DNA of 32,000 bases from Candidatus Saccharimonadota bacterium. Its GTDB lineage: Archaea; Nanohalarchaeota; Nanosalinia; Nanosalinales; Nanosalinaceae. Positions 13,058 to 31,591 of the stretch are shown in pieces. Numbering within the stretch: position 1 is the stretch's first letter; each line of letters starts with the position of its first letter. A program made the position numbers and the translations under genes. The DNA is taken from positions 540,001-572,000 of the forward strand of contig CP012986.1 of the NCBI GenBank assembly GCA_001761425.1, written 5' to 3'. A model generated the notes under the pieces. The model was given only the letters and a program-made list of their open reading frames with translations. It ran no database searches and was not told where the DNA came from.

Positions 13058-15037
13058 ATGATTATAGGGGACTACTATATCAATAACTTCCTCGTTCTGG
13101 CAATAGTCCTTCTCCTGTTCGGAGGCCTTGGCCTCCTGATAGTCCCCGGTGATGCAGGAACTGGTCAGACCGATCAGAACCAGTCGAGCGGTAACTACGA
13201 GCTACTGGTGAGCGGACAGGGCCTTCAGGCCGGTTCTTTCCAGGATGTGACACTGGTAGATGATACAGGTGATCCTGTCTCGGGAATATCAGTGCTGCTC
13301 AACGGCCAGGAGGTAGGCACAACTGGAGATGACGGCTCAGTGACATTTGAAGTTCCGAACCAATCGACTGTTACTGTTTCTGCCTCCAGCTCCCAAGTAG
13401 ACTTTGAAAAAAACTTTCAGGTAGAAAGCTCCGGTAACTCGGGAGAAAACGGAGATGGCTCAGGGAACAATGACAGCGACGGAGACTCTCAAGAGGACGG
13501 AGGCGACGGAGACAATGATAACAGCACTGACGACTCCTCAGACGGAAACAACACAGATAACCCAGACAATTCTATAGAAGCAGATATAAACCGCCTGAGC
13601 CCTGAAAACCAGCAGCTTAACTCTGCATCATTTGAGGCCTCATACGAACTCCAGGCAGAAAACGCTTCCTACAAACTAAGCCTTGCGGAGCAGAAAAAGG
13701 CCTCAGGAAACCTCGACGGAGAAAAAACTGTTAACGAACAGGTATCGATGCCTTTCAACGGTACAGCAGGCCTTGAGATGGAGATAGTACGAGAAGGAGA
13801 AGTTCTCGCCTCGGAAAACCTCATAGTAAATTATACTGCAGAAGGTTCGGATGATGGTTCGAACGACAGTTCAGGTGGGGAGGATCCTGCCGGGGTTACC
13901 GCAGACCTCTCAGTTCCTTCATCGGTGCATGTAGGGGATGCCCTGGAGGCCGATGCATCTGGATCGACTGGAGATATCATAAACTACACATGGAACTTTG
14001 GAGAAGGTACTGAAGAGACCAGGGAGGCCTCGACGATAGAACACACCTACAGCAGTGAAGGAACCTACGAGTTCGTGGTAACTGTAAACGGAGAAAACAG
14101 TACAGAGGACAACGCCTTGGAAACGATAGAGGTCCGGAGCCTCCAGGAACCTCTCATCAACTTCCAGAGTCCTACAAAGGGCTATGTGACAGATCAAAGT
14201 TCTATTGATTACGAATTTGTTGTAGAGAATGCTTCAAGCGACGCAGAATATACTGTATTGATAGATCAGTCAGCTACTGTTTCTGGAAATCTTGAAGAGG
14301 GAAGTAGTACAGTACAGCGAGATGTAGAAGTTCCTGCTACAGTTTTCAATACTTCTGTTCAGGTGAGTCAAGGGGAGGAAACATATACTTCTGAGAGAAG
14401 GAGGGTAGATGCTCGTGACTCTGAACCACAGCCTAAATATTCTCTTGTATCACCTGAAGAGGGACAGTCTCTGGAGACAGTGGATTCTCAGATGGATGTA
14501 GAATTGAAATATGAGATCACCGATAGAAATTGGGCTAGCTCCGCTAATTTGACTCTGGAGAATGAAAGTTCTGTAATCTTCCAGAATCCTGTTAGTGTTG
14601 CATCAGGAAATCATACAGAGAAAGTGTCTGGTTTAACCTCTGGAGAATACTCTTATTCTCTAGAAATAGAGGGAGATGGTAATTCAGATAAGAAGAGTTC
14701 CTCATTTGAAATACGGGAGATAGAACCATATTATAATATTGCTGAATGGAATGAAACCGTACTGGATAACGGATATGAGGTAAGGTTCAACCTTTCATAT
14801 AACGTTAGCGATTCTTCCTTGCTTGAAGCTAATATCTATAACTCCAGTGGAACCGAAGTAAGGTCATATTCCAGATTTGTTGACGACGTTGGAAGTCTGA
14901 ACTTTACAAAAAGCTTCATGGAACCAAAGAACTATTACTGGTACCTCAACATAACTAGCGGAGAAGAAACAGTCTTATCTACAAAACCAAATGAAAGAGA
15001 GTTTGAAACAGTGGAGTCAAACCCTAATGACAATTAG
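13058..15037 (+). CDS. membrane-anchored/secreted acidic cell-surface protein with PKD domain and Ig-like modules
   Basis: 659 aa. Features:
- N-terminal hydrophobic segment FLVLAIVLLLFGGLGLLIV.
- CarboxypepD_reg-like segment (VTLVDDTGDPVSGISVLLNGQEVGTTGDDGSVTFEV).
- D/S/G/N low-complexity linker (nt ~13427-13573).
- PKD signature (INYTWNFGEGTEE...HTYSSEGTYEFVVTV, nt ~13895-14140).
- Many N-x-S/T sequons. Confidence 0.8.
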   Translation: MIIGDYYINNFLVLAIVLLLFGGLGLLIVPGDAGTGQTDQNQSSGNYELLVSGQGLQAGSFQDVTLVDDTGDPVSGISVLLNGQEVGTTGDDGSVTFEVPNQSTVTVSASSSQVDFEKNFQVESSGNSGENGDGSGNNDSDGDSQEDGGDGDNDNSTDDSSDGNNTDNPDNSIEADINRLSPENQQLNSASFEASYELQAENASYKLSLAEQKKASGNLDGEKTVNEQVSMPFNGTAGLEMEIVREGEVLASENLIVNYTAEGSDDGSNDSSGGEDPAGVTADLSVPSSVHVGDALEADASGSTGDIINYTWNFGEGTEETREASTIEHTYSSEGTYEFVVTVNGENSTEDNALETIEVRSLQEPLINFQSPTKGYVTDQSSIDYEFVVENASSDAEYTVLIDQSATVSGNLEEGSSTVQRDVEVPATVFNTSVQVSQGEETYTSERRRVDARDSEPQPKYSLVSPEEGQSLETVDSQMDVELKYEITDRNWASSANLTLENESSVIFQNPVSVASGNHTEKVSGLTSGEYSYSLEIEGDGNSDKKSSSFEIREIEPYYNIAEWNETVLDNGYEVRFNLSYNVSDSSLLEANIYNSSGTEVRSYSRFVDDVGSLNFTKSFMEPKNYYWYLNITSGEETVLSTKPNEREFETVESNPNDN

Positions 15038-15090: not shown

Positions 15091-17823
15091 GTGAATATTA
15101 AAAGATTTTTCGGTAGTATCCTAATCTTAAGCCTTTTGATGATTGCTCTAGCTGTAAACGTCTCGGCCCAACAGTATGAGACAAATTCATGTAATGATCC
15201 TGATAGTTGTGACTTTAACCTAGATACTGATCCTGGAGAACTTCTAATAATAGGTCATGCTTCTGCTGATACTGGTAACAACTGTGACTGGACTTTTAAC
15301 GTAAATCTGAATGGCAACAATGTTGTCTCCACAAGAGAAGGTGATTCAGACTGGACTGTATTCGACAATCAGGCCATTGTTACTTTGAGAGATGTAAACT
15401 CTGGAAGTCAGGACATTAATGTGGTTGAAAACCATGAATGTAGCCCGAACTGGAGGAGAACTCAGGTCTCAGCTATCCAGGTTTCTAATTCCTGGGGAAC
15501 AGCCCGCACGTCGAGATGTAATGATCCTGATGGATGTGATTTCAATATAAATACAGGCTCAGGCGAGCTACTTCTTTTAGGTTATTCTTCGGCAGATACA
15601 GGCAATAATGACGACTGGACATTTGGTGTTGACCTCGATGGTACCACTGAGGCCTCGGTAAAAGAGGGAGATTCGGATACCACTGTCTACGATAACCAGT
15701 TCTTTTCTACTTTGGTAGATGTAAATTCAGGCTCCCACGATATCAACACCTGGGAGAATCATGAAAACAACCCCAACTGGAGAGAAACTCAGGTAGTAGC
15801 AATAGAGATTCCTCAAGGAATCCCCTCATCTTCAGTTCAATGTAACGATCCGGACAACTGCGATTTCAACCCGGACAGCGGAGGATCTCCAGTTCTTCTG
15901 AGCGGTCATTCATCAGCCAGTACCGGAAACAACGAGGACTGGACGTTCAACCTCAATGTTGACGGAAATAGTGTTGCTTCTTCGAAGGAAGGAGACTCCG
16001 ATATAAGCGTATTCGATACACAGGGACTCAGTACAATAGTTGGCGGAGGAAACCTCAATATTAATACATGGGAAAGCCACGAAGGCAGTCCTAATTGGAG
16101 GGAGACGCAGGTTTCAGCAGTATCTATCGTCAATCCGGATTCTCCGACAATAACAGATGTAAACTATGACAAAACAGCAGGCGATCCAGCGACAATCCAA
16201 GGTACGATAAATGTAGATATCGACAATGCTGGAGGTAATGCACCGAACAACCAGCTTGAATCTTGTACAGTTACTGCTGAGGGAGTTGACAGCGGAGGCC
16301 AGGTAAATCTGAATACAAACATCAATGGTGATTCCTGTAGCTTTTCCGTAGATAACAACCAGCACGGTAACTGGAACCCAGATGAAGAACTCAGGTTCGA
16401 GATGAGCGTAGAAGACAGCTACGGAGGGACAGATGATTTAACAGGATTTGAACAGTTCCCGGTAAATCCTCCGAATGCACCAGCACTCGCAGCACCGGGA
16501 GACGATGCAGAGTCGGTCAGTACCGGGCAGAGTCTAGAAGTAACAGCTACACATCCTGACGGTCTTGAGATGGATGTTAGGTTCTACGTAGATGATGGAT
16601 CAGGCTTCTCACAGGTAGGACCTACAAGAACAGCATCCGATGGAGAGACAGTCTCAGTCAGCCCAGGATTCAGTGAAGGAACAGAATACGACTGGTATGC
16701 GGAAGCGGAAACACAGGACAGAACCAACGAAAGCGACAGATGGCACTTCACCACTAACCACAGGCCTTCAATCCAAGAAATGGACACTCAACCGAAGACC
16801 TCTGATCACGGTATATCGTTCACGGCAACGGTGAGAGAAGAGGACGGGAGAAGCCAGATAGACAGCTGTGAACTAGAGGCATCAGGCGGCGGAGGTTCAG
16901 AAACGTACACAGCGACAGTAGAAGATGGAGAAACCCAGGAAGAAGCAGTATGCAGTGTAGACGACATCGGTTTCGAAGACAGTTCGTGGTCTCACCTTGA
17001 AAACCTTGACCTCGAGCTGACTGTCACCGACCAGCAAGGTCTCTCAGCTACAGGTAGCAGTGAGGGACAGTTCCCGAACCACAGGCCGGTGATCAAAAGC
17101 CTCGAGGCAAGTGAATACGTTGACAGAGAGGCCTTCGAGGTTAATTCGTTGATAAGGCCTGTAGATGTCGGTTCTGATGAGATGAGAGGCTGTACTGTAG
17201 TCTTGAGTGATGAGGATAATTCCTATACTGCTGGTTCGATGACACAGGTTAATTCGACTCATGTACGGTGTGAAGGCGATGACCTGGGGCCTTCGAAGTT
17301 CCCAGGCCTTGATATGGATGAGGAACTGGAGGTGGAGGTCAGAGCTACTGATATTCACGGTGGCACGGCTTTAGATTCTATCATGTACAATCTGCCTACC
17401 GGTATAGACTATCAGTACTCTGCTATGATCATCGACAGTGGAGGAATCGATTTCCTGCCTTATCAGGTAAGCAACAATGGTAACGGACAGGCAGAGTTCA
17501 GCACAGAACTTCAAAACGTGAACGCATCCTTTACAGCTAACGGAGAAGATTCCAGGAACTTTACACTGGATTCTGGACAAGTTGAACAACAGAGCATAAG
17601 GATCTCTCCAGACGTAGAGTTTACAGGTACAAAAGAACTCAGGATAATCACGGAGAACCTTGAAACAGGAATACAGAAAGAAAGCACTATCCCTATCCAT
17701 GTAAGAGAAGCACCGAAGACGACGGAAAGGCCTGTACCCGGTATAGGAACTTTACAGTTACTTGTACTGTTTGTCACAGCACTGATTCTATTTTCCGGGA
17801 GAAAATCCGGGCCTCAAATCTAA
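15091..17823 (+). CDS. large secreted cell-surface protein: signal peptide, 3 tandem Cys-pair repeats, Ig/FN3-like modules, PGF-CTERM-like C-terminal anchor
   Basis: 910 aa with a GTG start. Features:
- Signal peptide MNIKRFFGSILILSLLMIALAVNVSA-QQ.
- Three ~108-aa repeats starting CNDPDxCDFN.
- Modules of ~108-110 aa, two of them opening with NHRP(S/V)I.
- C-terminus TTERPVPGIGTLQLLVLFVTALILFSGRKSGPQI, which resembles the PGF-CTERM sorting signal. Confidence 0.85.
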   Translation: MNIKRFFGSILILSLLMIALAVNVSAQQYETNSCNDPDSCDFNLDTDPGELLIIGHASADTGNNCDWTFNVNLNGNNVVSTREGDSDWTVFDNQAIVTLRDVNSGSQDINVVENHECSPNWRRTQVSAIQVSNSWGTARTSRCNDPDGCDFNINTGSGELLLLGYSSADTGNNDDWTFGVDLDGTTEASVKEGDSDTTVYDNQFFSTLVDVNSGSHDINTWENHENNPNWRETQVVAIEIPQGIPSSSVQCNDPDNCDFNPDSGGSPVLLSGHSSASTGNNEDWTFNLNVDGNSVASSKEGDSDISVFDTQGLSTIVGGGNLNINTWESHEGSPNWRETQVSAVSIVNPDSPTITDVNYDKTAGDPATIQGTINVDIDNAGGNAPNNQLESCTVTAEGVDSGGQVNLNTNINGDSCSFSVDNNQHGNWNPDEELRFEMSVEDSYGGTDDLTGFEQFPVNPPNAPALAAPGDDAESVSTGQSLEVTATHPDGLEMDVRFYVDDGSGFSQVGPTRTASDGETVSVSPGFSEGTEYDWYAEAETQDRTNESDRWHFTTNHRPSIQEMDTQPKTSDHGISFTATVREEDGRSQIDSCELEASGGGGSETYTATVEDGETQEEAVCSVDDIGFEDSSWSHLENLDLELTVTDQQGLSATGSSEGQFPNHRPVIKSLEASEYVDREAFEVNSLIRPVDVGSDEMRGCTVVLSDEDNSYTAGSMTQVNSTHVRCEGDDLGPSKFPGLDMDEELEVEVRATDIHGGTALDSIMYNLPTGIDYQYSAMIIDSGGIDFLPYQVSNNGNGQAEFSTELQNVNASFTANGEDSRNFTLDSGQVEQQSIRISPDVEFTGTKELRIITENLETGIQKESTIPIHVREAPKTTERPVPGIGTLQLLVLFVTALILFSGRKSGPQI
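15190..16130 (+). repeat. three tandem ~324-327 nt (108-109 aa) intragenic domain repeats
   Basis: Repeat starts are at Cys34 (15190), Cys143 (15517) and Cys251 (15841). Shared blocks are CNDPDxCDFN, G(H/Y)(A/S)SA(D/S)TGNNxDWTF, KEGDSD, V(F/Y)D, (W/V)E(N/S)HExxPNWR(E/R)TQV. The repeats are conserved at protein level but diverged at nucleotide level. Confidence 0.85.
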
Positions 17824-23022: not shown

Positions 23023-23286
23023 TTAGGCCTTTTGGTTGGAGCTGTTGCTGTAAACTTTTTCTCCTTCGAGGAAAATTTTTCCATCTTCGTCTAGCATGAG
23101 TGAAAAATCTTCCTGGAAAAGGCCTATGATCTGGCTGTTTTCCCATTCTAGGCCTTCTTTCTTCATCTGTTTTTTCAGGAATTTTCTGGAGTTATCTCTG
23201 TCTGAGATTTTTTCCATGTCGATGTCAGGTTTGATGAAGATTATGTCGTTGTCTCCTCGTTCTGTATCTATTCTTTCTCTATTCAT
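23023..23286 (-). CDS. small hypothetical protein translationally coupled to ABCE1
   Basis: 87 aa from the ATG at complement 23284-23286 (MNRERIDTERGDNDIIFIKPD...). This ATG lies inside ATGAATAG, which overlaps the ABCE1 stop (TAG, 23279-23281). The longer track ORF (to 23382) would overlap the ABCE1 coding sequence. Confidence 0.5.
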   Translation of the reverse strand: MNRERIDTERGDNDIIFIKPDIDMEKISDRDNSRKFLKKQMKKEGLEWENSQIIGLFQEDFSLMLDEDGKIFLEGEKVYSNSSNQKA

Positions 23287-25105
23287 CGTCTTCGTCGCTT
23301 TCTTTTTTGATGGATTTTTGTTCATAGAACTCGTCGTTTTTCCTATGTTCTTTGTCTTTCTGGCTTCCTGGTTTGTTGGCACGAGGCCTTCCTGTCTCCG
23401 GGTCTCGTCTGAAGGTGATATCGACTTCTTCCAGGAATTCGTTCATAGCGTCTCCTATTTTCATTGGTTCAGTTGTTTTCCCTGTTTTTCCTGGTTCGCC
23501 TGTGAAAACCATTCCACGGTCTGCGATGTAGTCAAGCAGTAGAAGATCATGATCGATAACCATCAAGGGTTTCCCGGTTTTCCTCGCGAAACGCTTCAAG
23601 GCCTTTCCCAGTTCCACGCGGGATTCTACGTCCATGTAGGCAGAAGGTTCATCCAGCAGGTAGATGTCTGCGTCTCTTGCCAGGCAGATCGCTATGCCTA
23701 CACGCTGTAACTCTCCTCCTGACAGGTCTTCCAGGTTCTGCTCGTAAAGGTTTTGAAGGCCTAGCGGTTCTGCTATCCTGGCCTTGAACTTCTTTGATTG
23801 AGGGTTGACATGTTTGCCTATGGCGGTTTCTACAAGTTCATCCTTGGCCTCCAGGTACTGGGCCTTGTAGCTGATCGAGATGTCCGGAGCCTCTTCCTTC
23901 TCTGGCTCTAGTGCTCCTGCCAGCATCTTTGCGAAGGTGGTTTTTCCGACGCCGTTCTCGCCGAAGACTGCTAGAATTTCTTCCTCATGGAGAGTTCCTG
24001 CTTCTGTTTCAAGTTCGAACTCTTCTTCTCCAAAGTCTTTCCTCATTTCCGGGAAGTTGAAGGCCTCTGATTTTTTCTCGACCTGGGATCTCTTTGTCCT
24101 GTCGAAGTCTATGCTGTCGTCTCTGATTCTGAGATTATGTGTTTTCAGGTATCCTTCCAGGTACTGGTTTATACCCTCTCTTGTGCTTAAGGCGTTCGAT
24201 ACCATTCCGTAGGCAGCTGGTTCTCCGTGGAAGACATGGATTGCTGATGAGACAAGGTCAAGCGTTGCGAGGTCGTGTTCGACCACGAGAACAGCTTTTT
24301 CTTCGCCTAGTTCCTGAACTGCTCTTCCAACGTTCAAACGCTGCTTGACGTCCAGGAAAGATGAAGGCTCGTCGATAACGTATATCGAAGAATCCTTAAC
24401 AAGTGTAGAGGCGATAGCAACTCTCTGAAGTTCTCCACCGGAAAGCTCGCCAATATCTCTGTCCAGAAGATGGTCTATATCTAGCTTCTCAGCAAACATA
24501 TCAGCTGAGTCTTTCTCGTCAGCTTTTTCCAGTAAATCTCCGACCTCTCCGTCATGGAACTCCGGTATCTTATCCACCTGCTGGGGCTTGTAAGAGGCCT
24601 CTATCTCTTCCTCAGCCAGTTTGTTGAAGTGTTCCTGGAGGCCTGTCCCCCTGTATTCTTCCTTTATTTTTTTCCAGTCTGGAGGATTTTCGAATTCGCC
24701 AAGGTTTGGCTTTATATCTCCGGACAGGATTTTGAGTGCCGTGGATTTTCCGATCCCGTTTCTTCCGAGGATTCCTACTACACGGCCTTTCTGCGGTTCT
24801 GGTAAACCGTAGAGGCGGAAACTGTTTTCCCCGAACTGGTGGATCTGTTCTCCGAACTCTCTGTCGAGCCTGATCAGCTGTATAGCTCCTTCGTGAGGGT
24901 ACTTGTTTATCGCCATTTTGTGGGCCTCCATCACCTTCTCATTGTCGATATGTAGCTCTCCTTCTTCTGTGATGTGGAAGCCGCCTTCTTTTCCTGACCT
25001 GTTCAACGGATCGTAGTTGACAACTGTTTCCCGGGCCAGATCTGGCTCTATCTTTTCCTGATCGATCGCGACGATGAAACGCTTGCTGTTTTTGTCCGTG
25101 TTCAT
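23279..25105 (-). CDS. ABCE1: ABCE1 / RNase L inhibitor-type ribosome-recycling ATPase, with cysteine-free N-terminal domain
   Basis: 608 aa. It has two ABC cassettes: Walker A GRNGIGKST and GENGVGKTT, signature LSGGELQR twice, and Walker B IYVIDEPSS and IYLLDEPSA. The hinge and C-terminal RRDPETGRPRANK are typical of ABCE1. The N-terminal ~75 aa align to the Fe-S domain scaffold but lack all Cys. Confidence 0.9.
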   Translation of the reverse strand: MNTDKNSKRFIVAIDQEKIEPDLARETVVNYDPLNRSGKEGGFHITEEGELHIDNEKVMEAHKMAINKYPHEGAIQLIRLDREFGEQIHQFGENSFRLYGLPEPQKGRVVGILGRNGIGKSTALKILSGDIKPNLGEFENPPDWKKIKEEYRGTGLQEHFNKLAEEEIEASYKPQQVDKIPEFHDGEVGDLLEKADEKDSADMFAEKLDIDHLLDRDIGELSGGELQRVAIASTLVKDSSIYVIDEPSSFLDVKQRLNVGRAVQELGEEKAVLVVEHDLATLDLVSSAIHVFHGEPAAYGMVSNALSTREGINQYLEGYLKTHNLRIRDDSIDFDRTKRSQVEKKSEAFNFPEMRKDFGEEEFELETEAGTLHEEEILAVFGENGVGKTTFAKMLAGALEPEKEEAPDISISYKAQYLEAKDELVETAIGKHVNPQSKKFKARIAEPLGLQNLYEQNLEDLSGGELQRVGIAICLARDADIYLLDEPSAYMDVESRVELGKALKRFARKTGKPLMVIDHDLLLLDYIADRGMVFTGEPGKTGKTTEPMKIGDAMNEFLEEVDITFRRDPETGRPRANKPGSQKDKEHRKNDEFYEQKSIKKESDEDDE

Positions 25106-25212
25106 ACTCTAGGATTCATCCTGAAGAATTTTAATACCGACCGCGTAGAAACCAGGAAAGGCCTTAGAATAGGAGAAGAGAAAAAAATTTTTGAAATGTG
25201 TGAGCGATGTTT

Positions 25213-29007: not shown

Positions 29008-30369
29008 ATGACTGTGGAGGAAGTCGTTGAAAAGGACGAAAAGATTGACAGCAAGGAGTTTCTGGAGGAATTGAAACAGGTAGACGAGAAGTACAACCTG
29101 ATGAGAGAGATCAAGAATGGGGAAAAGAGCCATGGAGAACTTGAGAAGATTCCGTTCGTCGTCAAAGACGCGATTGCGACAGAAGGAGTCACAACTTCCG
29201 CAGGCAGTAAAATACTTGAAGATTACAGGCCTGTATTCGATGCCACGGTCGTAAAACGTTTGAAAAAATCTGGAGCACAGTTTTTCGGGAAAACAGAACA
29301 GGACGAGTTCGGCTTCGGAACATTCTCCACAAACAACGCATTCACAACGCCAAAAAATCCTCATGATGAGGAAAGAGTGGTCGGTGGATCTTCTGGAGGC
29401 GCAGGAGCGGTAGTCGCTGCCATGGACAAACCCTTGATCTCGATCGGGGAAAGCACAGGAGGCTCGATCACCAACCCGGCCGCATACAACGGAGTCGTCG
29501 GAATCACACCGACCTACGGAAGAGTCTCACGCTACGGCCTCGTAGACTACGCGAACAGTCTGGACAAGATCGGAGTCCTGGCAGAAAATGTTTACGGCGC
29601 AGCGAAAGGCCTTGAAGTGATCGCAGGGCATGATGAAAACGATCAGACAACAGCAGAGAAAAAAGTACCAGAATACTCAGATCTGGAGAAAAAACAGGAT
29701 CTGAAAGTTGGGGTTCCGAAGCAGTATCTGGAGCTTGAAGGCCTTGAAGAAGGCGTGAAGGAGAACTTCGAGGAATCTCTGGAAAAGCTTGAGGAGACGG
29801 GTGCAGAGGTTGAAAAAGTTGATATGCCTCTTCTCTCCGCAGATTATGCAGTACCTTCTTACTACGTTCTTGCGATGGCTGAGGCCTCTACCAACCTGGC
29901 GAAGATGTCAGGAATAAGGTATGGCCTCGAGATGGATCCTGAGAACTTCGAAGACTTCAATGAGTACTTCTCTGAGGTCAGATCCGAGGGTTTCGGCGAG
30001 GAAGCGAAGAGAAGAATCCTGCTTGGAACATATACTAGAATGGCAGGTTACAGGGACCAGTACTACATCAAAGCAGCTGAGGTTAGACAGAAGATAATCA
30101 ACCAGTACAAAGAGGCCTTTGAAGAATTTGATGTCCTTCTGTCACCTTCTATGCCGAATATTGCGCCGAAGATTGAAGAGGCCGAGAGCATGGATCCTGC
30201 CGAGATTTATGCGATGGATACTTTGACGGTAGGGCCTAACCTTGCTGGTTTACCGATGATCTCCGTTCCTAACGGGAAAAGCGAGGGTATGCCTACAGGC
30301 CTTCATATTGTCGGCGACCATTTTGAAGAAAAAAAGATCCTGGATGTTGCTTACAGTTACAGGCGGTGA
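29008..30369 (+). CDS. gatA: Asp/Glu-tRNA amidotransferase subunit A (amidase signature family)
   Basis: 453 aa. Amidase signature GGSSGGAGAVVA, catalytic Ser in ESTGGSITNPAA, and GITPTYGRVSRYGL. TATA-like AATTTTTAAG lies about 28 nt upstream of the ATG. Confidence 0.88.
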   Translation: MTVEEVVEKDEKIDSKEFLEELKQVDEKYNLMREIKNGEKSHGELEKIPFVVKDAIATEGVTTSAGSKILEDYRPVFDATVVKRLKKSGAQFFGKTEQDEFGFGTFSTNNAFTTPKNPHDEERVVGGSSGGAGAVVAAMDKPLISIGESTGGSITNPAAYNGVVGITPTYGRVSRYGLVDYANSLDKIGVLAENVYGAAKGLEVIAGHDENDQTTAEKKVPEYSDLEKKQDLKVGVPKQYLELEGLEEGVKENFEESLEKLEETGAEVEKVDMPLLSADYAVPSYYVLAMAEASTNLAKMSGIRYGLEMDPENFEDFNEYFSEVRSEGFGEEAKRRILLGTYTRMAGYRDQYYIKAAEVRQKIINQYKEAFEEFDVLLSPSMPNIAPKIEEAESMDPAEIYAMDTLTVGPNLAGLPMISVPNGKSEGMPTGLHIVGDHFEEKKILDVAYSYRR

Positions 30370-30376
30370 TTTATTT

Positions 30377-31591
30377 TTGGCAGAAGGAGAAGAAATAAAA
30401 CAACAGGTTGTAGGGAACGTACCTTTCGGTCAGATCAATTCTATACTTGAAGGCAAGCTTGAGAGAGACGGCGAGAGAAGAAAAGCTGTCGAAGAGGTCG
30501 AGGAAAACAGCAACCGGGTTATCACCGGGGGCGGGAAGCGTTTCCGCGTCGCACTTCCATATATCATGGCACAGGGCCTTGACCTTGATTACAGCGATGA
30601 AGAGCTGATTGAGGCCTTTATCCCGATAGAGATGGCTCACGGCCTTTCCCTGGTCATGGATGACATGATAGATGAGGATAAAAAGAGGAGAGGCATGAAG
30701 ACTCCGCATGAGCGGTTGAAAGATCAGGGCTATACGGATAAGCAGGCGGAATCGCTTGTTACCCTCGACGTAATGCAGATACTTTCAAGGGCGGAGAGAG
30801 CACCTCTTGAACTTGATTTCCTGTCCAGAGACCAGCAGGTGGAGATAACAGAAACTATAGGAGATGGGATAACCAGACTGACCCGTGGACAGGAGCTGGA
30901 CGTGGCAGGAGAAAACTCCATGGACGAAAAATTCCAGGAAAGACTCTCATACAGGGGAGACGAATTCAGCTACGAAATGTTTTACCGTGACGTCGTAGAA
31001 GGCAAGACATCACCGCTCTTCGAGGCAGGGCCGAGAATACTTGAGATAATGTCGGGAAAAGAACTGGAAAATCTTCACGACTACACCAGGAACCTGGCAA
31101 AGGCCTTCCAGATCAGAGACGACATCCTGGATATATCAGGTGGAGAGGAAAAAGTCAGTGTCACGGAAAGGCCTGAAGAAAAGGGTATAGGTAAGGATCG
31201 TTACTCTGATATCAGTGAGGGGACTATGACCCTGCCTATAAACTATGCGTTCCAGCTGATGGATGATGAGGACTGGGGCCAGATGGAGGCCTATGTAAAG
31301 GAGCTTGTGGATTCTGAGAACTATCTTGCTTCTGTAGATGACTTTTTCAAAGTCTACGGCGACAGGAGAGAGTTCCTTGAGTCCGTTATGAAGAAGGATA
31401 GTCCTGAAACATACGAGCTTCAGATCGCAGGTAAAATCATAGAGACTACCGGGGCTCTGGAGAAGGCGAACCAGGAGGCCTTGGATTATGCGGAAAATGC
31501 GGTCGAGAACCTTGAGGAATCCGGCCTTGACGGCGAGTACGGAGAACTTCTTGAGGATATGGCTTACTTCGCAGCTACAAGATCAAAATAA
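30377..31591 (+). CDS. polyprenyl (geranylgeranyl-type) diphosphate synthase family protein, unusually long; start uncertain
   Basis: First Asp-rich motif LVMDDMIDEDKKRRG and second Asp-rich motif FQIRDDILD. The track ORF starts at 30308 inside gatA. The TTG at 30377 is the first non-overlapping start and the ATG at 30344 is an alternative. Confidence 0.75.
   Translation: MAEGEEIKQQVVGNVPFGQINSILEGKLERDGERRKAVEEVEENSNRVITGGGKRFRVALPYIMAQGLDLDYSDEELIEAFIPIEMAHGLSLVMDDMIDEDKKRRGMKTPHERLKDQGYTDKQAESLVTLDVMQILSRAERAPLELDFLSRDQQVEITETIGDGITRLTRGQELDVAGENSMDEKFQERLSYRGDEFSYEMFYRDVVEGKTSPLFEAGPRILEIMSGKELENLHDYTRNLAKAFQIRDDILDISGGEEKVSVTERPEEKGIGKDRYSDISEGTMTLPINYAFQLMDDEDWGQMEAYVKELVDSENYLASVDDFFKVYGDRREFLESVMKKDSPETYELQIAGKIIETTGALEKANQEALDYAENAVENLEESGLDGEYGELLEDMAYFAATRSK

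What the first reader, a model, noticed from the sequence alone, without database searches (positions are those of the whole stretch)
24878..25105. ABCE1 homologue whose Fe-S cluster domain has lost all eight cysteines
Canonical archaeal and eukaryotic ABCE1 begins with a ferredoxin-like domain. It binds two [4Fe-4S] clusters through eight invariant Cys, in the pattern Cx4Cx4Cx3CP ... Cx2Cx2Cx3CP. The domain is regarded as essential for ribosome splitting.

Here the N-terminus is RFIVAIDQEKIEPDLARETVVNYDPLNRSGKEGGFHITEEGELHIDNEKVMEAHKMAINKYPHEGAIQLIRLD. It keeps the scaffold: the IAVID-like strand, both Pro residues that follow the last Cys of each cluster (YDP, KYP), and the AIxxIxL strand. 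It contains no cysteine at all. The whole 608-aa protein has a single Cys, in NBD2 (GIAICLARD).

An in-frame stop lies two codons upstream of the ATG, so a missed N-terminal extension is excluded. Both ATPase cassettes look intact. A cluster-free ABCE1 would be an unusual solution, possibly linked to oxic hypersaline life or to reduced Fe-S biogenesis in a small genome.
Basis: partly seen in the sequence, partly recalled or inferred. Interest (0 to 1): 0.7.

Follow-up and report, generated by a model that had tools for sequence, protein, structure and literature searches.

The report
Iron-sulfur-free ABCE1 ribosome recycling factor
This salt-loving nano-archaeon, like its whole phylum, makes the essential ribosome-splitting ATPase ABCE1 with a well-conserved N-terminal domain that has lost all eight cysteines that normally hold its two iron-sulfur clusters, so those clusters, widely treated as indispensable, seem to be dispensable in nature.

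Summary
Window 23279-25105 (-) encodes a 608-aa ABCE1/RLI (NCBIfam equivalog, 702.7 bits; 100% identical to a protein of Nanohaloarchaea archaeon SG9). It has one Cys (C474, in NBD2), and none of the eight Fe-S ligand positions is Cys.

The N-terminal domain is still the homologue of the Fe-S domain. It is collinear with P. abyssi ABCE1, and profile-profile comparison gives 96.4% probability (E 1.3e-9). It is too diverged for Pfam or HMMER to detect on its own.

This is not an error or a decaying copy. The cysteine-free state occurs in 119 of the 120 closest database proteins and in all 38 complete genes from Nanohaloarchaeota species genomes. The residues that replaced the ligands are nearly invariant, the domain is more conserved than the ATPase body, and dN/dS is 0.01-0.03.

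Related metagenomic sequences keep only the four ligands of one cluster, which suggests a stepwise loss.

A cultivated relative, Ca. Nanohalococcus occultus, has a transcribed SUF system, other gene products annotated as families that normally bind Fe-S, and a single RLI gene in the same synteny. The loss is therefore specific to ABCE1 and does not reflect missing Fe-S biogenesis.

I found no paper describing it. Verdict: a new variant of a known factor, of real interest.

The parts
23279..25105 (-). Complete ABCE1/RLI gene: 608 aa plus stop codon, ATG start
   Evidence: ORF list and translation. NCBIfam NF009945 RLI equivalog 702.7 bits against a cutoff of 469, residues 11-596 on profile positions 4-590. 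PDB 3bk7 E 2.4e-155. 100% identical to P0001 of Nanohaloarchaea archaeon SG9.
25109..25111 (-). In-frame TAG stop two codons upstream of the ATG; rules out a missed N-terminal extension
   Evidence: Sequence and upstream translation.
25082..25105 (-). Lineage-specific N-terminal extension, residues 1-8 (MNTDKNSK); K5 is nearly invariant in the clade
   Evidence: Alignments. Low pLDDT in both models.
24866..25081 (-). Cysteine-free homologue of the ABCE1 Fe-S cluster domain, residues 9-80, with predicted beta-alpha-beta-beta-alpha-beta topology
   Evidence: Translation. hhalign against a canonical Fe-S-domain profile: 96.4%, E 1.3e-9, 75 collinear columns. AlphaFold secondary structure: E10-14, H21-31, E43-45, E51-53, H55-68, E75-79. 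No Pfam family at E<=10. Mean pairwise identity 77.5% against 67.5% for the rest of the protein; dN/dS 0.008-0.03.
25010..25051 (-). First former ligand motif: I19 (ligand 1), A24 (2), V28 (3), D32 (4). Canonical pattern is Cx4Cx3-4Cx3CP.
   Evidence: Alignments. Occupancy in 121 distinct cysteine-free N-termini: I 117/121, A 119/121, V 121/121, D 121/121.
24992..25009 (-). P33-L-N35-R36-S-G38. This is the counterpart of the S. solfataricus P25/R28/S29 stretch that contacts ribosomal protein uS12 in the post-splitting complex.
   Evidence: Translation. P, N and R are invariant and G is present in 120 of 121 N-termini. Contact residues are taken from PMC7196836. The S. solfataricus sequence was verified against PDB 6tmf_d.
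24899..24934 (-). Second former ligand motif: V58-M59 (ligand 5), A61-H62 (6), A65 (7), Y69 (8), followed by P70. Canonical pattern is Cx2Cx2Cx3CP. A one-residue insertion lies upstream of ligand 7.
   Evidence: Alignments. V, H, A and Y are in 121/121, M in 120/121.
24842..24865 (-). Linker from the last strand of the N-terminal domain to NBD1 (residues 81-88, DREFGEQI). Counterpart of the cantilever linker.
   Evidence: Alignment to 3bk7 and 6tmf_d. Low pLDDT at 82-84. The cantilever is described in PMC7196836.
24158..24841 (-). NBD1 (about residues 89-316): Walker A G114RNGIGKS, Q-loop KPQ173, signature L221SGGE, Walker B I241YVIDEP, H-loop E276HDL
   Evidence: Motif scan. Pfam ABC_tran. 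pLDDT 86-93. Domain boundaries are approximate.
24071..24157 (-). Hinge 1 region, about residues 317-345
   Evidence: Alignment to 3bk7. Low pLDDT at 321-327. Boundaries are approximate.
23426..24070 (-). NBD2 (about residues 346-560): Walker A G382ENGVGKT, signature L461SGGE, Walker B I481YLLDEP, H-loop D518HDL. Contains the only Cys, C474 (23684-23686).
   Evidence: Motif scan. Translation of 23684-23686. Pfam ABC_tran, second stretch.
23318..23425 (-). Hinge 2 region, about residues 561-596 (RRDPETGRPRANKPGSQKDKEHR...)
   Evidence: Alignment to 3bk7 and to NF009945 up to residue 594-596. R566, D568, R573, R575, N577, K578, S581 and others are invariant in the clade.
23279..23317 (-). Acidic C-terminal tail (residues 597-608) plus stop codon. 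Absent from most relatives, which are 593-598 aa.
   Evidence: Lengths. pLDDT below 50 at 598-608.

Best explanation
This is most likely the organism's single, functional ABCE1, the ATPase that splits 70S ribosomes after termination or stalling and then stays on the 30S subunit. What differs is the N-terminal domain. In all studied ABCE1 this domain is built around two [4Fe-4S] clusters. Here it has become a purely proteinaceous domain of the same size and predicted topology.

Shown:
- Orthology to ABCE1.
- Intact twin-ATPase motifs.
- Homology and collinearity of the N-terminal domain with the Fe-S domain.
- No cysteine at any ligand position.
- Replacement residues that are almost invariant: I, A, V and Y at the four positions of the ABCE1-specific cluster, and D, V/M, A/H and A at those of the ferredoxin-like cluster.
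- Stronger purifying selection on this domain than on the ATPase body.
- Conservation of the P-x-N-R-x-G stretch that contacts uS12 in solved post-splitting complexes.
- Presence of the trait throughout Nanohaloarchaeota.

Inferred:
- The fixed hydrophobic and aromatic residues fill the former cluster cavities.
- The domain still acts as the mechanical wedge: closure of the ATP sites pushes it away, it drives the A-site factor between the subunits, and it then docks at h44/uS12 to block re-association.
- The loss proceeded stepwise. The ferredoxin-like cluster (ligands 4-7) went first, as in related sequences that keep only ligands 1, 2, 3 and 8. The second cluster followed.
- The benefit was removal of an oxygen- and ROS-labile cofactor (or an iron cost) from an essential translation factor, in non-respiring cells that live on aerobic hosts in oxic brines. 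Loss of Fe-S assembly capacity was not the driver.
For: Identity and orthology:
- NF009945 equivalog, 702.7 bits.
- PDB ABCE1 structures match at E 1e-125 to 1e-155 over the full length.
- The AlphaFold model matches ABCE1 in 7o80 with TM 0.84 over 596 columns.
- The synteny FtsZ / small membrane protein / KH protein / ABCE1 is shared with L043 and with SVXNc_0632-0634.

ATPase motifs are intact in both NBDs.

The N-terminal domain is homologous but has no ligands:
- Searches give the alignments.
- A canonical S. solfataricus Fe-S domain of 83 aa detects all PDB ABCE1s and hits Fer4_RLI and Fer4 in Pfam. The SG9 domain detects nothing.

The trait is clade-wide and constrained:
- 119 of the 120 best homologues and 38 of 38 complete genes from species-representative genomes have no ligand Cys.
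- The replacement residues are fixed in 117-121 of 121 distinct N-termini.
- Domain identity is 77.5% against 67.5% for the rest; dN/dS is 0.008-0.03 against 0.03-0.07.
- The cysteine-free clade has 99% bootstrap support on the ATPase region alone.

Single-cluster intermediates exist. P0219, P0277 and P0279 keep ligands 1-3 (and 8 where the sequence reaches it). Position 4 is Asp and position 6 is His, as in the cysteine-free forms. P0278 still has ligand 4.

The lineage is not short of Fe-S capacity. SUF genes are present and transcribed, genes annotated as Rad3/XPD, Dph2 and EndoIII are present, and one RLI1 is listed in Ca. Nanohalococcus occultus SVXNc.

Lifestyle: pyruvate dehydrogenase rather than a ferredoxin oxidoreductase, no respiratory chain, and aerobic hosts.

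ROS sensitivity: the title and abstract of PMC3442406 name Rli1's Fe-S clusters as a major ROS target in yeast (listed).

Cysteine is used normally elsewhere in the window (0.75% overall; Cys-rich tRNA synthetases and a 4-Cys motif in the KH protein).
Against: - No biochemical data exist. Absence of cysteine does not strictly prove absence of any cofactor, and D32 and H62 are invariant at or next to former ligand positions.
- The structural model of the N-terminal domain is only moderately confident (pLDDT 57-72 in the full-length model, 71 alone). Foldseek matches of the isolated domain are not significant. The best E is 0.17, although ABCE1/Rli1 and other di-cluster ferredoxin domains are among the top weak hits.
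- Some rRNA-contact residues of S. solfataricus are not conserved (K15 to L, E19 to T, R2 to F/Y), so the docking interface must have changed or co-evolved.
- The complete SG9 genome could not be searched. Single-copy status and presence of SUF are shown only for a related cultivated species.
- The adaptive reason (oxygen/ROS or iron economy) is inference. Whether co-habiting Halobacteria keep all eight Cys was not tested.
Confidence: 0.8

Rival explanations
1. The domain has exchanged its two [4Fe-4S] clusters for another cofactor, for instance a mononuclear metal ion held by the invariant D32 and H62 (with M59, E60 or H52). It is then still a metallo-domain, not a cofactor-free wedge.
For: D32 (ligand 4 position) and H62 (at or next to ligand 6) are invariant in 121/121 N-termini. 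Both are already present in the single-cluster intermediates. Asp, His and Met are common metal ligands (general knowledge).
Against: There is no recognisable metal-binding motif and no Pfam hit. The four positions of the other cluster are I, A, V and Y, which cannot ligate a metal. A buried Asp-His pair could equally be a structural hydrogen bond.
Confidence: 0.1
2. The protein keeps the ATPase engine but its N-terminal domain no longer works as the splitting wedge. Ribosome recycling in these reduced symbionts works differently, or the protein has shifted to another ABCE1 role such as anti-association or initiation.
For: Several rRNA-contact residues known from S. solfataricus are changed. 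The domain has diverged beyond detection by sequence HMMs.
Against: The domain is under stronger purifying selection than the ATPase body. Its length, its predicted topology, the uS12-contact stretch P-x-N-R-x-G, the E/K-P-D loop and the last strand are retained. The hinge 2 residues that anchor ABCE1 to the small subunit are invariant. aRF1 is annotated in the relative's genome.
Confidence: 0.07
3. This is a divergent duplicate, and a canonical cysteine-containing ABCE1 elsewhere in the genome does the essential job.
For: The SG9 genome outside the window could not be searched. One MAG labelled 'Nanohaloarchaea archaeon' at NCBI encodes an eight-Cys ABCE1 (P0307).
Against: Searches of the gene and transcript table of the cultivated Ca. 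Nanohalococcus occultus SVXNc found one line annotated as RLI1 (SVXNc_0634). It lies beside FtsZ and a gene annotated 'Transcription elongation factor', in the position the KH-domain protein holds in the window. All 42 loci from species genomes carry the cysteine-free type. P0307 is a non-acidic protein on a contig without this synteny, so it comes from a different, non-halophilic organism. The strong constraint and intact catalytic motifs argue against a relaxed paralogue.
Confidence: 0.02
4. The feature is an artefact: a sequencing or assembly error, a frameshift, or a wrong start codon hiding the true Fe-S domain.
For: None found.
Against: An in-frame stop lies two codons upstream of the ATG. 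The reading frame is uninterrupted. The same domain is present in more than 150 sequences from independent assemblies, including several complete genomes.
Confidence: 0.01

Closest known systems
Canonical archaeal and eukaryotic ABCE1 (RLI/Rli1/Pixie), e.g. P. abyssi 3bk7, S. solfataricus 6tmf, human and yeast ABCE1
   Same: Full-length collinear orthologue with 38-47% identity to solved structures. It has two ABC nucleotide-binding domains with all catalytic motifs, aligns end to end without large gaps (which covers the helix-loop-helix insertion), and has hinge 1 and hinge 2. The N-terminal domain has the same length and predicted beta-alpha-beta-beta-alpha-beta order. Both prolines and the P-x-N-R-x-G uS12-contact stretch are kept.
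   Different: None of the eight cysteines that coordinate the two [4Fe-4S] clusters is present. The Pfam models Fer4_RLI and Fer4 do not match at all. There is a one-residue insertion before ligand 7, an eight-residue N-terminal extension, and an acidic (halophilic) surface. The 2026 review PMC13255074 still describes eight conserved cysteines, at least seven of them required for viability.
Single-cluster ABCE1 variants found here in metagenomes (P0219, P0277, P0278, P0279; N-terminus of P0107)
   Same: They share derived features with the cysteine-free form: Asp at ligand 4 (except P0278), His at ligand 6, the helix V-(V/M)-T/E-E-A/M-H-K with the same one-residue insertion, and F/YDP(L/I)NRSG-EGF.
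   Different: They still have ligands 1, 2, 3 and 8, which are the four ligands of the ABCE1-specific cluster by the assignment in PMC13255074. They still match Pfam Fer4_RLI (43.5 bits). Their sequences are not acidic. Their organisms are unknown.
ABCE1 lacking its Fe-S domain (laboratory truncations, e.g. PDB 1yqt, 3ozx, 5yv5)
   Same: An ABCE1 ATPase body without Fe-S clusters.
   Different: Those are engineered deletions used for crystallography and lack the domain altogether. Here the domain is retained, conserved and presumably functional.
ABC-F translation ATPases (EttA, ARE-ABCF, eEF3-like)
   Same: Soluble twin-NBD ABC ATPases that act on ribosomes without Fe-S clusters. They appear as weaker structural and sequence matches.
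   Different: They have a different architecture: an inter-domain linker (PtIM) that reaches the E/P site, and no N-terminal ferredoxin-like domain or ABCE1 hinges. Their scores are far below the ABCE1 match (173 against 703 bits).

Membership tests
ABCE1 / RLI (NCBIfam NF009945 equivalog) | Full-length match above the curated cutoff | tested here: met
   702.7 bits against a cutoff of 469; residues 11-596 on profile positions 4-590 of 592.
ABCE1 / RLI | Two ABC nucleotide-binding domains with Walker A, Q-loop, signature, Walker B/catalytic Glu and H-loop | tested here: met
   GRNGIGKS / KPQ / LSGGE / IYVIDEP / EHDL in NBD1. GENGVGKT / LSGGE / IYLLDEP / DHDL in NBD2. Pfam ABC_tran matches twice.
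ABCE1 / RLI | ABCE1-specific overall architecture (N-terminal domain, NBD1 with helix-loop-helix insertion, hinge 1, NBD2, hinge 2) | tested here: met
   End-to-end alignment to 3bk7 without large gaps. The AlphaFold model gives TM 0.84 to ABCE1 in 7o80 over 596 columns and aligns 606 columns to 3bk7.
ABCE1 / RLI | Eight conserved cysteines (Cx4Cx3-4Cx3CP ... Cx2Cx2Cx3CP) coordinating two [4Fe-4S] clusters | tested here: not met
   All eight positions are non-Cys (I, A, V, D, V/M, A/H, A, Y). The whole protein has one Cys, at residue 474. All eight are invariant in 40 canonical representatives.
ABCE1 / RLI | Pfam Fer4_RLI (PF04068) and Fer4 (PF00037) domains at the N-terminus | tested here: not met
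   No Pfam family at E<=10 for residues 1-87. The S. solfataricus control gives Fer4_RLI at 52.4 bits plus 14 other Fer4-type models.
ABCE1 / RLI | N-terminal domain homologous to the Fe-S domain (same position, length and fold) | tested here: met
   hhalign 96.4%, E 1.3e-9, 75 collinear columns. Intermediates bridge the two forms. Predicted beta-alpha-beta-beta-alpha-beta topology. The fold comparison of the isolated domain is not significant on its own.
ABCE1 / RLI | ATP-dependent ribosome splitting and 30S binding | not testable with these tools
   Needs biochemistry. Supported only indirectly by constraint and by conserved contact residues.
ABCE1 / RLI | Single-copy essential gene in archaea | tested here: inconclusive
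   Searches of the Ca. Nanohalococcus occultus SVXNc gene and transcript table found one line annotated as RLI1.
ABC-F ribosome-associated ATPases (considered and rejected) | Match to ABC-F family models above cutoff; inter-NBD PtIM linker | tested here: not met
   ribo_prot_ABC_F scores 173 bits against a cutoff of 380, and EttA 120 bits against 599. Structural matches are much weaker than those to ABCE1.

The most novel reading that the evidence does not exclude
An entire archaeal phylum runs ribosome recycling with an ABCE1 that contains no iron-sulfur cluster. The clusters were replaced residue by residue with a fixed protein core, through single-cluster intermediates that still exist in nature. 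This would show that the clusters in ABCE1 are structural and replaceable, not mechanistically required. It would also uncouple translation from Fe-S biogenesis and oxidative damage in these cells.
Probability: 0.75. Interest if true: 0.8.

Novelty: new variant of a known kind. Interest (0 to 1): 0.7.

Why it matters
ABCE1 is essential in archaea and eukaryotes. To my knowledge its two [4Fe-4S] clusters are a standard argument for why cytosolic Fe-S assembly is indispensable in eukaryotes. They are also named as a main target through which reactive oxygen species stop growth (PMC3442406). What the clusters are for has never been settled. The 2026 review PMC13255074 still states that eight conserved cysteines are needed for folding and function.

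A natural, strongly conserved, cysteine-free ABCE1, together with naturally occurring single-cluster intermediates, makes the question directly testable:
- Is the domain only a rigid wedge?
- Can the nanohaloarchaeal domain replace the Fe-S domain in S. solfataricus or yeast ABCE1?
- Does that make translation resistant to oxygen, ROS or iron starvation?

It would also give biochemists an oxygen-stable ABCE1 to work with. [quoted passage not shown]

Tried and rejected
Searches that found nothing:
- Single-sequence phmmer of the N-terminal 87 aa against PDB gave no ABCE1 hit.
- An HMM of 28 cysteine-free N-termini against PDB gave no ABCE1 hit.
- Pfam on the N-terminus found nothing at E<=0.01 or at E<=10.
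- Only profile-profile comparison and the intermediates recover the homology.

Structure:
- Foldseek of the isolated-domain model against PDB gave no significant match (best E 0.17). Fe-S ferredoxin domains and Rli1/ABCE1 are among the top weak hits, so I treat this as inconclusive.

The idea that the lineage is free of Fe-S clusters:
- A motif scan of 640 kb of Nanohaloarchaeota DNA found no CxxCxxCxxxC and only two Cx3Cx2C motifs.
- The idea was rejected after the SVXNc gene table showed transcribed SUF genes and genes annotated as Fe-S-binding families.

P0107 as a basal intermediate:
- This was rejected. Its ATPase part and its neighbouring genes are of the crown-group type, and only its N-terminal ~85 residues are of the single-cluster type. 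It is a mosaic, produced by recombination or by mis-assembly.

P0307, an eight-Cys ABCE1 labelled 'Nanohaloarchaea', as a canonical paralogue:
- This was rejected. The protein is non-acidic and sits in a different genomic context, so it comes from a different organism.

Literature:
- Searches combining Nanohaloarchaea with ABCE1, Rli1, Fe-S, iron-sulfur or SufB found no description of this trait.
- The Nat Ecol Evol 2022 survey of Fe-S machineries was not held.
- The PNAS genome papers on Ca. Nanohalobium constans and Ca. Nanohaloarchaeum antarcticus do not mention iron or Fe-S.

Other:
- No tRNA or Rfam feature lies in the window.
- I could not identify a Halobacteria ABCE1 among the 150 family representatives to use as a same-habitat control.
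Full report
**What is there.** Window 23279-25105 on the minus strand is an uninterrupted 608-codon ORF.
- It starts at an ATG (25103-25105). An in-frame TAG lies two codons upstream (25109-25111), so no N-terminal extension has been missed.
- The translation has a single cysteine, C474, in GIAICLARD.
- It scores 702.7 bits on NCBIfam NF009945, the RLI/ABCE1 equivalog (cutoff 469), from residue 11 to 596.
- It aligns end to end with solved ABCE1 structures: P. abyssi 3bk7 at E 2.4e-155, and mammalian and yeast ABCE1 at about 1e-135 to 1e-142.
- Pfam finds the two ABC_tran domains but neither Fer4_RLI nor Fer4.
- Both nucleotide-binding domains have complete Walker A, signature, Walker B and H-loop motifs.
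- The protein is 100% identical to a protein of 'Nanohaloarchaea archaeon SG9' on a 1,125,078-bp contig.
- The window's predicted proteins are acidic, as expected for a salt-in halophile.

**The eight ligand positions.** The HMMER alignment to P. abyssi runs through the N-terminal domain with a single gap. A MAFFT alignment adds S. solfataricus; I verified that sequence against PDB 6tmf_d. Together they place the following residues at the ligand positions:

| Ligand | Residue here |
|---|---|
| 1 | I19 |
| 2 | A24 |
| 3 | V28 |
| 4 | D32 |
| 5 | V58/M59 |
| 6 | A61/H62 |
| 7 | A65 |
| 8 | Y69 |

- A one-residue insertion upstream of ligand 7 makes the register of ligands 5 and 6 uncertain by one position.
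- Both prolines after the fourth cysteine of each motif are kept (P33, P70), as are the first and last strands.
- In 40 canonical N-termini from family representatives, all eight Cys and both Pro are invariant.
- The cluster assignment follows PMC13255074: ligands 1, 2, 3 and 8 hold one cluster, and ligands 4 to 7 hold the other.

**Is the domain still the Fe-S domain?** Taken alone it is not recognisable by standard sequence searches.
- phmmer of residues 1-87 against PDB finds no ABCE1.
- An HMM of 28 cysteine-free N-termini finds none either.
- Pfam returns nothing even at E<=10.
- As a control, the 83-residue S. solfataricus domain finds every ABCE1 in PDB (E 1e-21 to 1e-53) and hits Fer4_RLI and many Fer4 models.

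Profile-profile comparison does recover the homology. The cysteine-free profile against the canonical profile gives 96.4% probability, E 1.3e-9, over 75 collinear columns.

The structural evidence is weaker.
- AlphaFold predicts strand-helix-strand-strand-helix-strand (10-14, 21-31, 43-45, 51-53, 55-68, 75-79), both in the full-length model and for the domain alone. This order fits a ferredoxin-like domain.
- Confidence is moderate: pLDDT 57-72 and 71 respectively.
- The full-length model superposes on ABCE1 with TM 0.84 to 7o80 over 596 columns.
- Foldseek of the isolated domain gives no significant match. Di-cluster ferredoxin domains and Rli1/ABCE1 are among the top weak hits, so I count this as inconclusive.

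**Distribution.**
- Of the 120 closest proteins in the 5.8-billion-sequence collection (64-100% identity), 119 have no cysteine in the N-terminal ~88 residues. Every one that carries an organism name is a Nanohaloarchaeon (Nanosalina, Nanohalobium constans, Nanohalococcus occultus and others).
- A scan of one genome per GTDB species, using patterns specific to the cysteine-free domain, returned 42 loci. All carry Nanohaloarchaeota-type sequence; most are titled Nanohaloarchaea, several only 'uncultured archaeon', and one sits in a bin named Colwellia polaris.
- All 38 loci from which an ABCE1 gene could be extracted lack ligand cysteines. These include Ca. Nanosalina J07AB43, the divergent Ca. 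Nanosalinarum J07AB56, and three complete or near-complete chromosomes.
- Across 121 distinct N-termini the replacement residues are close to invariant:
  - I19 in 117, A24 in 119, M59 and A61 in 120.
  - V28, D32, V58, H62, A65 and Y69 in all 121.
  - P33, N35, R36 and P70 are also invariant.
- Only one cysteine occurs in the whole set, at a non-ligand position.

**Constraint.**
- The domain (residues 9-80) is more conserved than the rest of the protein: mean pairwise identity is 77.5% against 67.5%.
- In the pairs close enough for unsaturated synonymous distances, dN/dS is 0.008-0.03 for the domain and 0.03-0.07 for the rest.
- This is a functional domain under strong purifying selection, not a relic.

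**Contact residues.** PMC7196836 lists the S. solfataricus Fe-S-domain residues that touch the 30S subunit after splitting.
- Contacts to rRNA: R2, K15, N17, E19 and K59.
- Contacts to uS12: P25, R28 and S29.
- The K12-P13-D14 loop would clash with NBD2 on closure.

Mapped onto this protein:
- The uS12 stretch is kept as invariant P33-x-N35-R36-(A/S)-G38.
- The loop is E20-P21-D22.
- K60 corresponds to K68.
- Changed positions: K15 to L23, N17 to R25, E19 to T27, and R2 to an aromatic residue preceded by K/R.
- The interface is therefore partly conserved and partly remodelled.

**Evolutionary path.** Among the 150 best representatives of the family at 50% identity, the forms without ligand cysteines are these:
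- the Nanohaloarchaeota representative P0121;
- P0122, whose N-terminus resembles that of Ca. Nanosalinarum (L040);
- P0130;
- P0124, which has one Cys, at ligand 7.

They are also the most acidic ABCE1s in that set.

A second class keeps exactly the ligands of the ABCE1-specific cluster.
- P0219 and P0277 keep ligands 1, 2, 3 and 8. The P0279 fragment ends before ligand 8. P0278 also keeps ligand 4.
- All share Asp at ligand 4 (except P0278), His at ligand 6, and the same one-residue insertion as the cysteine-free form.
- P0277 still matches Fer4_RLI but no Fer4 model at E<=0.01.
- This points to loss of the ferredoxin-like cluster first and the second cluster later.

A neighbour-joining tree of the ATPase part alone gives 99% bootstrap support for the cysteine-free Nanohaloarchaeota clade, which includes Nanosalinarum and P0122. 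The deeper nodes are unresolved.

The closest canonical relative, P0123, groups with unnamed and named DPANN archaea (Aenigmatarchaeota, Nanoarchaeota). All of these have eight or more Cys.

**The exception, P0107.** This is the one protein among the 120 that has cysteines (ligands 1, 2, 3, 7 and 8).
- Its gene lies in the same synteny as in the window: GatA, phosphoesterase, GatC, FtsZ, small protein, KH protein, ABCE1.
- Its neighbours and its ATPase part are of the crown-group type.
- Its first ~85 residues are 68% identical to P0219 and only 43-46% identical to crown sequences, with a sharp switch at the domain boundary.
- Because the more divergent Nanosalinarum already has the cysteine-free domain, P0107 is best read as a mosaic. 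The cause is either recombination that re-imported a single-cluster domain or a mis-assembly. I could not tell which.

The supplementary gene and transcript table of PMC10266531 covers the cultivated Ca. Nanohalococcus occultus SVXNc. The ABCE1 proteins found here for that species (P0112, P0117) have cysteine-free N-termini. The table lists:
- two SufB-type genes, a cysteine desulfurase, a NifU-like protein and the SufC ATPase, all transcribed;
- a Rad3-related helicase, Dph2 and endonuclease III, gene products annotated as families that normally bind Fe-S clusters;
- one gene annotated as RLI1 (SVXNc_0634), next to FtsZ and a gene annotated 'Transcription elongation factor'. This gene order matches that of the window, where a KH-domain protein holds that position.

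The same paper describes pyruvate dehydrogenase rather than a ferredoxin-dependent enzyme, no respiratory chain, and an obligate association with aerobic hosts. The title and abstract of PMC3442406 name Rli1's clusters as a major target of reactive oxygen species in yeast (listed). Removing a labile cofactor from an essential translation factor in oxygen-exposed, non-respiring cells is therefore a reasonable driver, and iron economy is another. Both are inference.

Cysteine as such is not avoided. The window's proteins contain 0.75% Cys, with Cys-rich tRNA synthetases and a four-Cys motif in the neighbouring KH protein.

**Known or new?** Only one paper in the held library mentions both Nanohaloarchaea and ABCE1, and it does so in unrelated passages. 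Other searches found nothing on a cysteine-free ABCE1. A 2026 review still states that eight conserved cysteines coordinate the clusters and that at least seven are needed for viability. The relative's gene is annotated as containing an Fe-S domain. The library excludes most subscription journals, so prior mention cannot be ruled out.

**Limits.**
- There is no biochemistry.
- The domain model is of moderate confidence.
- The SG9 genome outside the window was not searched.
- The tree is neighbour-joining with weak deep nodes.
- There is no Halobacteria control.
- The organisms behind the single-cluster sequences are unknown.

**Verdict.** It is an orthologous, constrained ABCE1 that very probably works without iron-sulfur clusters. 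That makes it a new variant of a well-known factor, with clear experimental follow-ups.

Noticed in passing
P0107 / locus L043 5116-6897 (NCBI JBDGSE010000027.1): Mosaic ABCE1 in a crown-group Nanohaloarchaeon. The first ~85 residues are of the single-cluster type (Cys at ligands 1, 2, 3, 7, 8; matches Pfam Fer4_RLI). The upstream KH gene and the rest of ABCE1 are typical crown sequences. Either a domain was re-imported by recombination or the contig is mis-assembled.
   Followed up: partly
P0145 (586 aa, metagenomic): The opposite single-cluster ABCE1 in an unrelated lineage. It keeps ligands 4-7 (the ferredoxin-like cluster) and has lost ligands 1-3 and 8. Partial loss of ABCE1 clusters has therefore happened more than once and in both directions.
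   Followed up: no
P0164, P0171, P0178, P0187, P0191, P0198, P0238, P0261: A divergent ABCE1 subgroup with only 2-8 N-terminal Cys (5-6 in four of the six with a complete N-terminus) and a different first motif (CKPKS..F.YL.K....C...CI). Some members are longer proteins. Possibly a eukaryote-type paralogue; organisms unknown.
   Followed up: no
P0127 (591 aa): An otherwise canonical ABCE1 with seven Cys. Ligand 5 is Thr.
   Followed up: no
P0219 (344 aa): This single-cluster ABCE1 looks like an internal deletion that fuses the first half of NBD1 to the second half of NBD2. It may be a truncated gene or an assembly artefact on a 2.6-kb contig.
   Followed up: no
L016 (JBLGBK010000009.1): A contig with typical Nanohaloarchaeota genes (cysteine-free ABCE1; FtsZ 89% identical to the window's) is deposited in a MAG named Colwellia polaris. 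Probably a binning contaminant.
   Followed up: no
L043 9630-10199; SVXNc_0637: A VIT1/CCC1-family Fe2+/Mn2+ transporter gene lies a few genes downstream of ABCE1 in two Nanohaloarchaeota. No such gene was detected in the SG9 window.
   Followed up: no
window 13058-15037 (+) and 15091-17823 (+): Two adjacent large, very lysine- and arginine-poor proteins. One is 659 aa with a PKD domain and no Cys. The other is 910 aa with 14 Cys and no Pfam match. Probably secreted or surface proteins.
   Followed up: no
window 23279-23317 (-): The SG9 protein and its closest relatives carry an extra acidic C-terminal tail (KSIKKESDEDDE). Most Nanohaloarchaeota ABCE1s (593-598 aa) lack it.
   Followed up: no
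P0307 / locus L044 595-2355 (NCBI WTCB01000013.1): A MAG labelled 'Nanohaloarchaea archaeon' encodes a canonical eight-Cys, non-acidic ABCE1 in a different gene context, next to an anaerobic ribonucleotide-reductase-like fragment. The label probably covers a non-halophilic DPANN lineage.
   Followed up: partly
window 29008-30369 (+) and 30308-31591 (+): The GatA-type amidase ORF and the polyprenyl synthetase ORF (listed with a TTG start) overlap by 62 bases. The true start of the second gene is probably further downstream.
   Followed up: no
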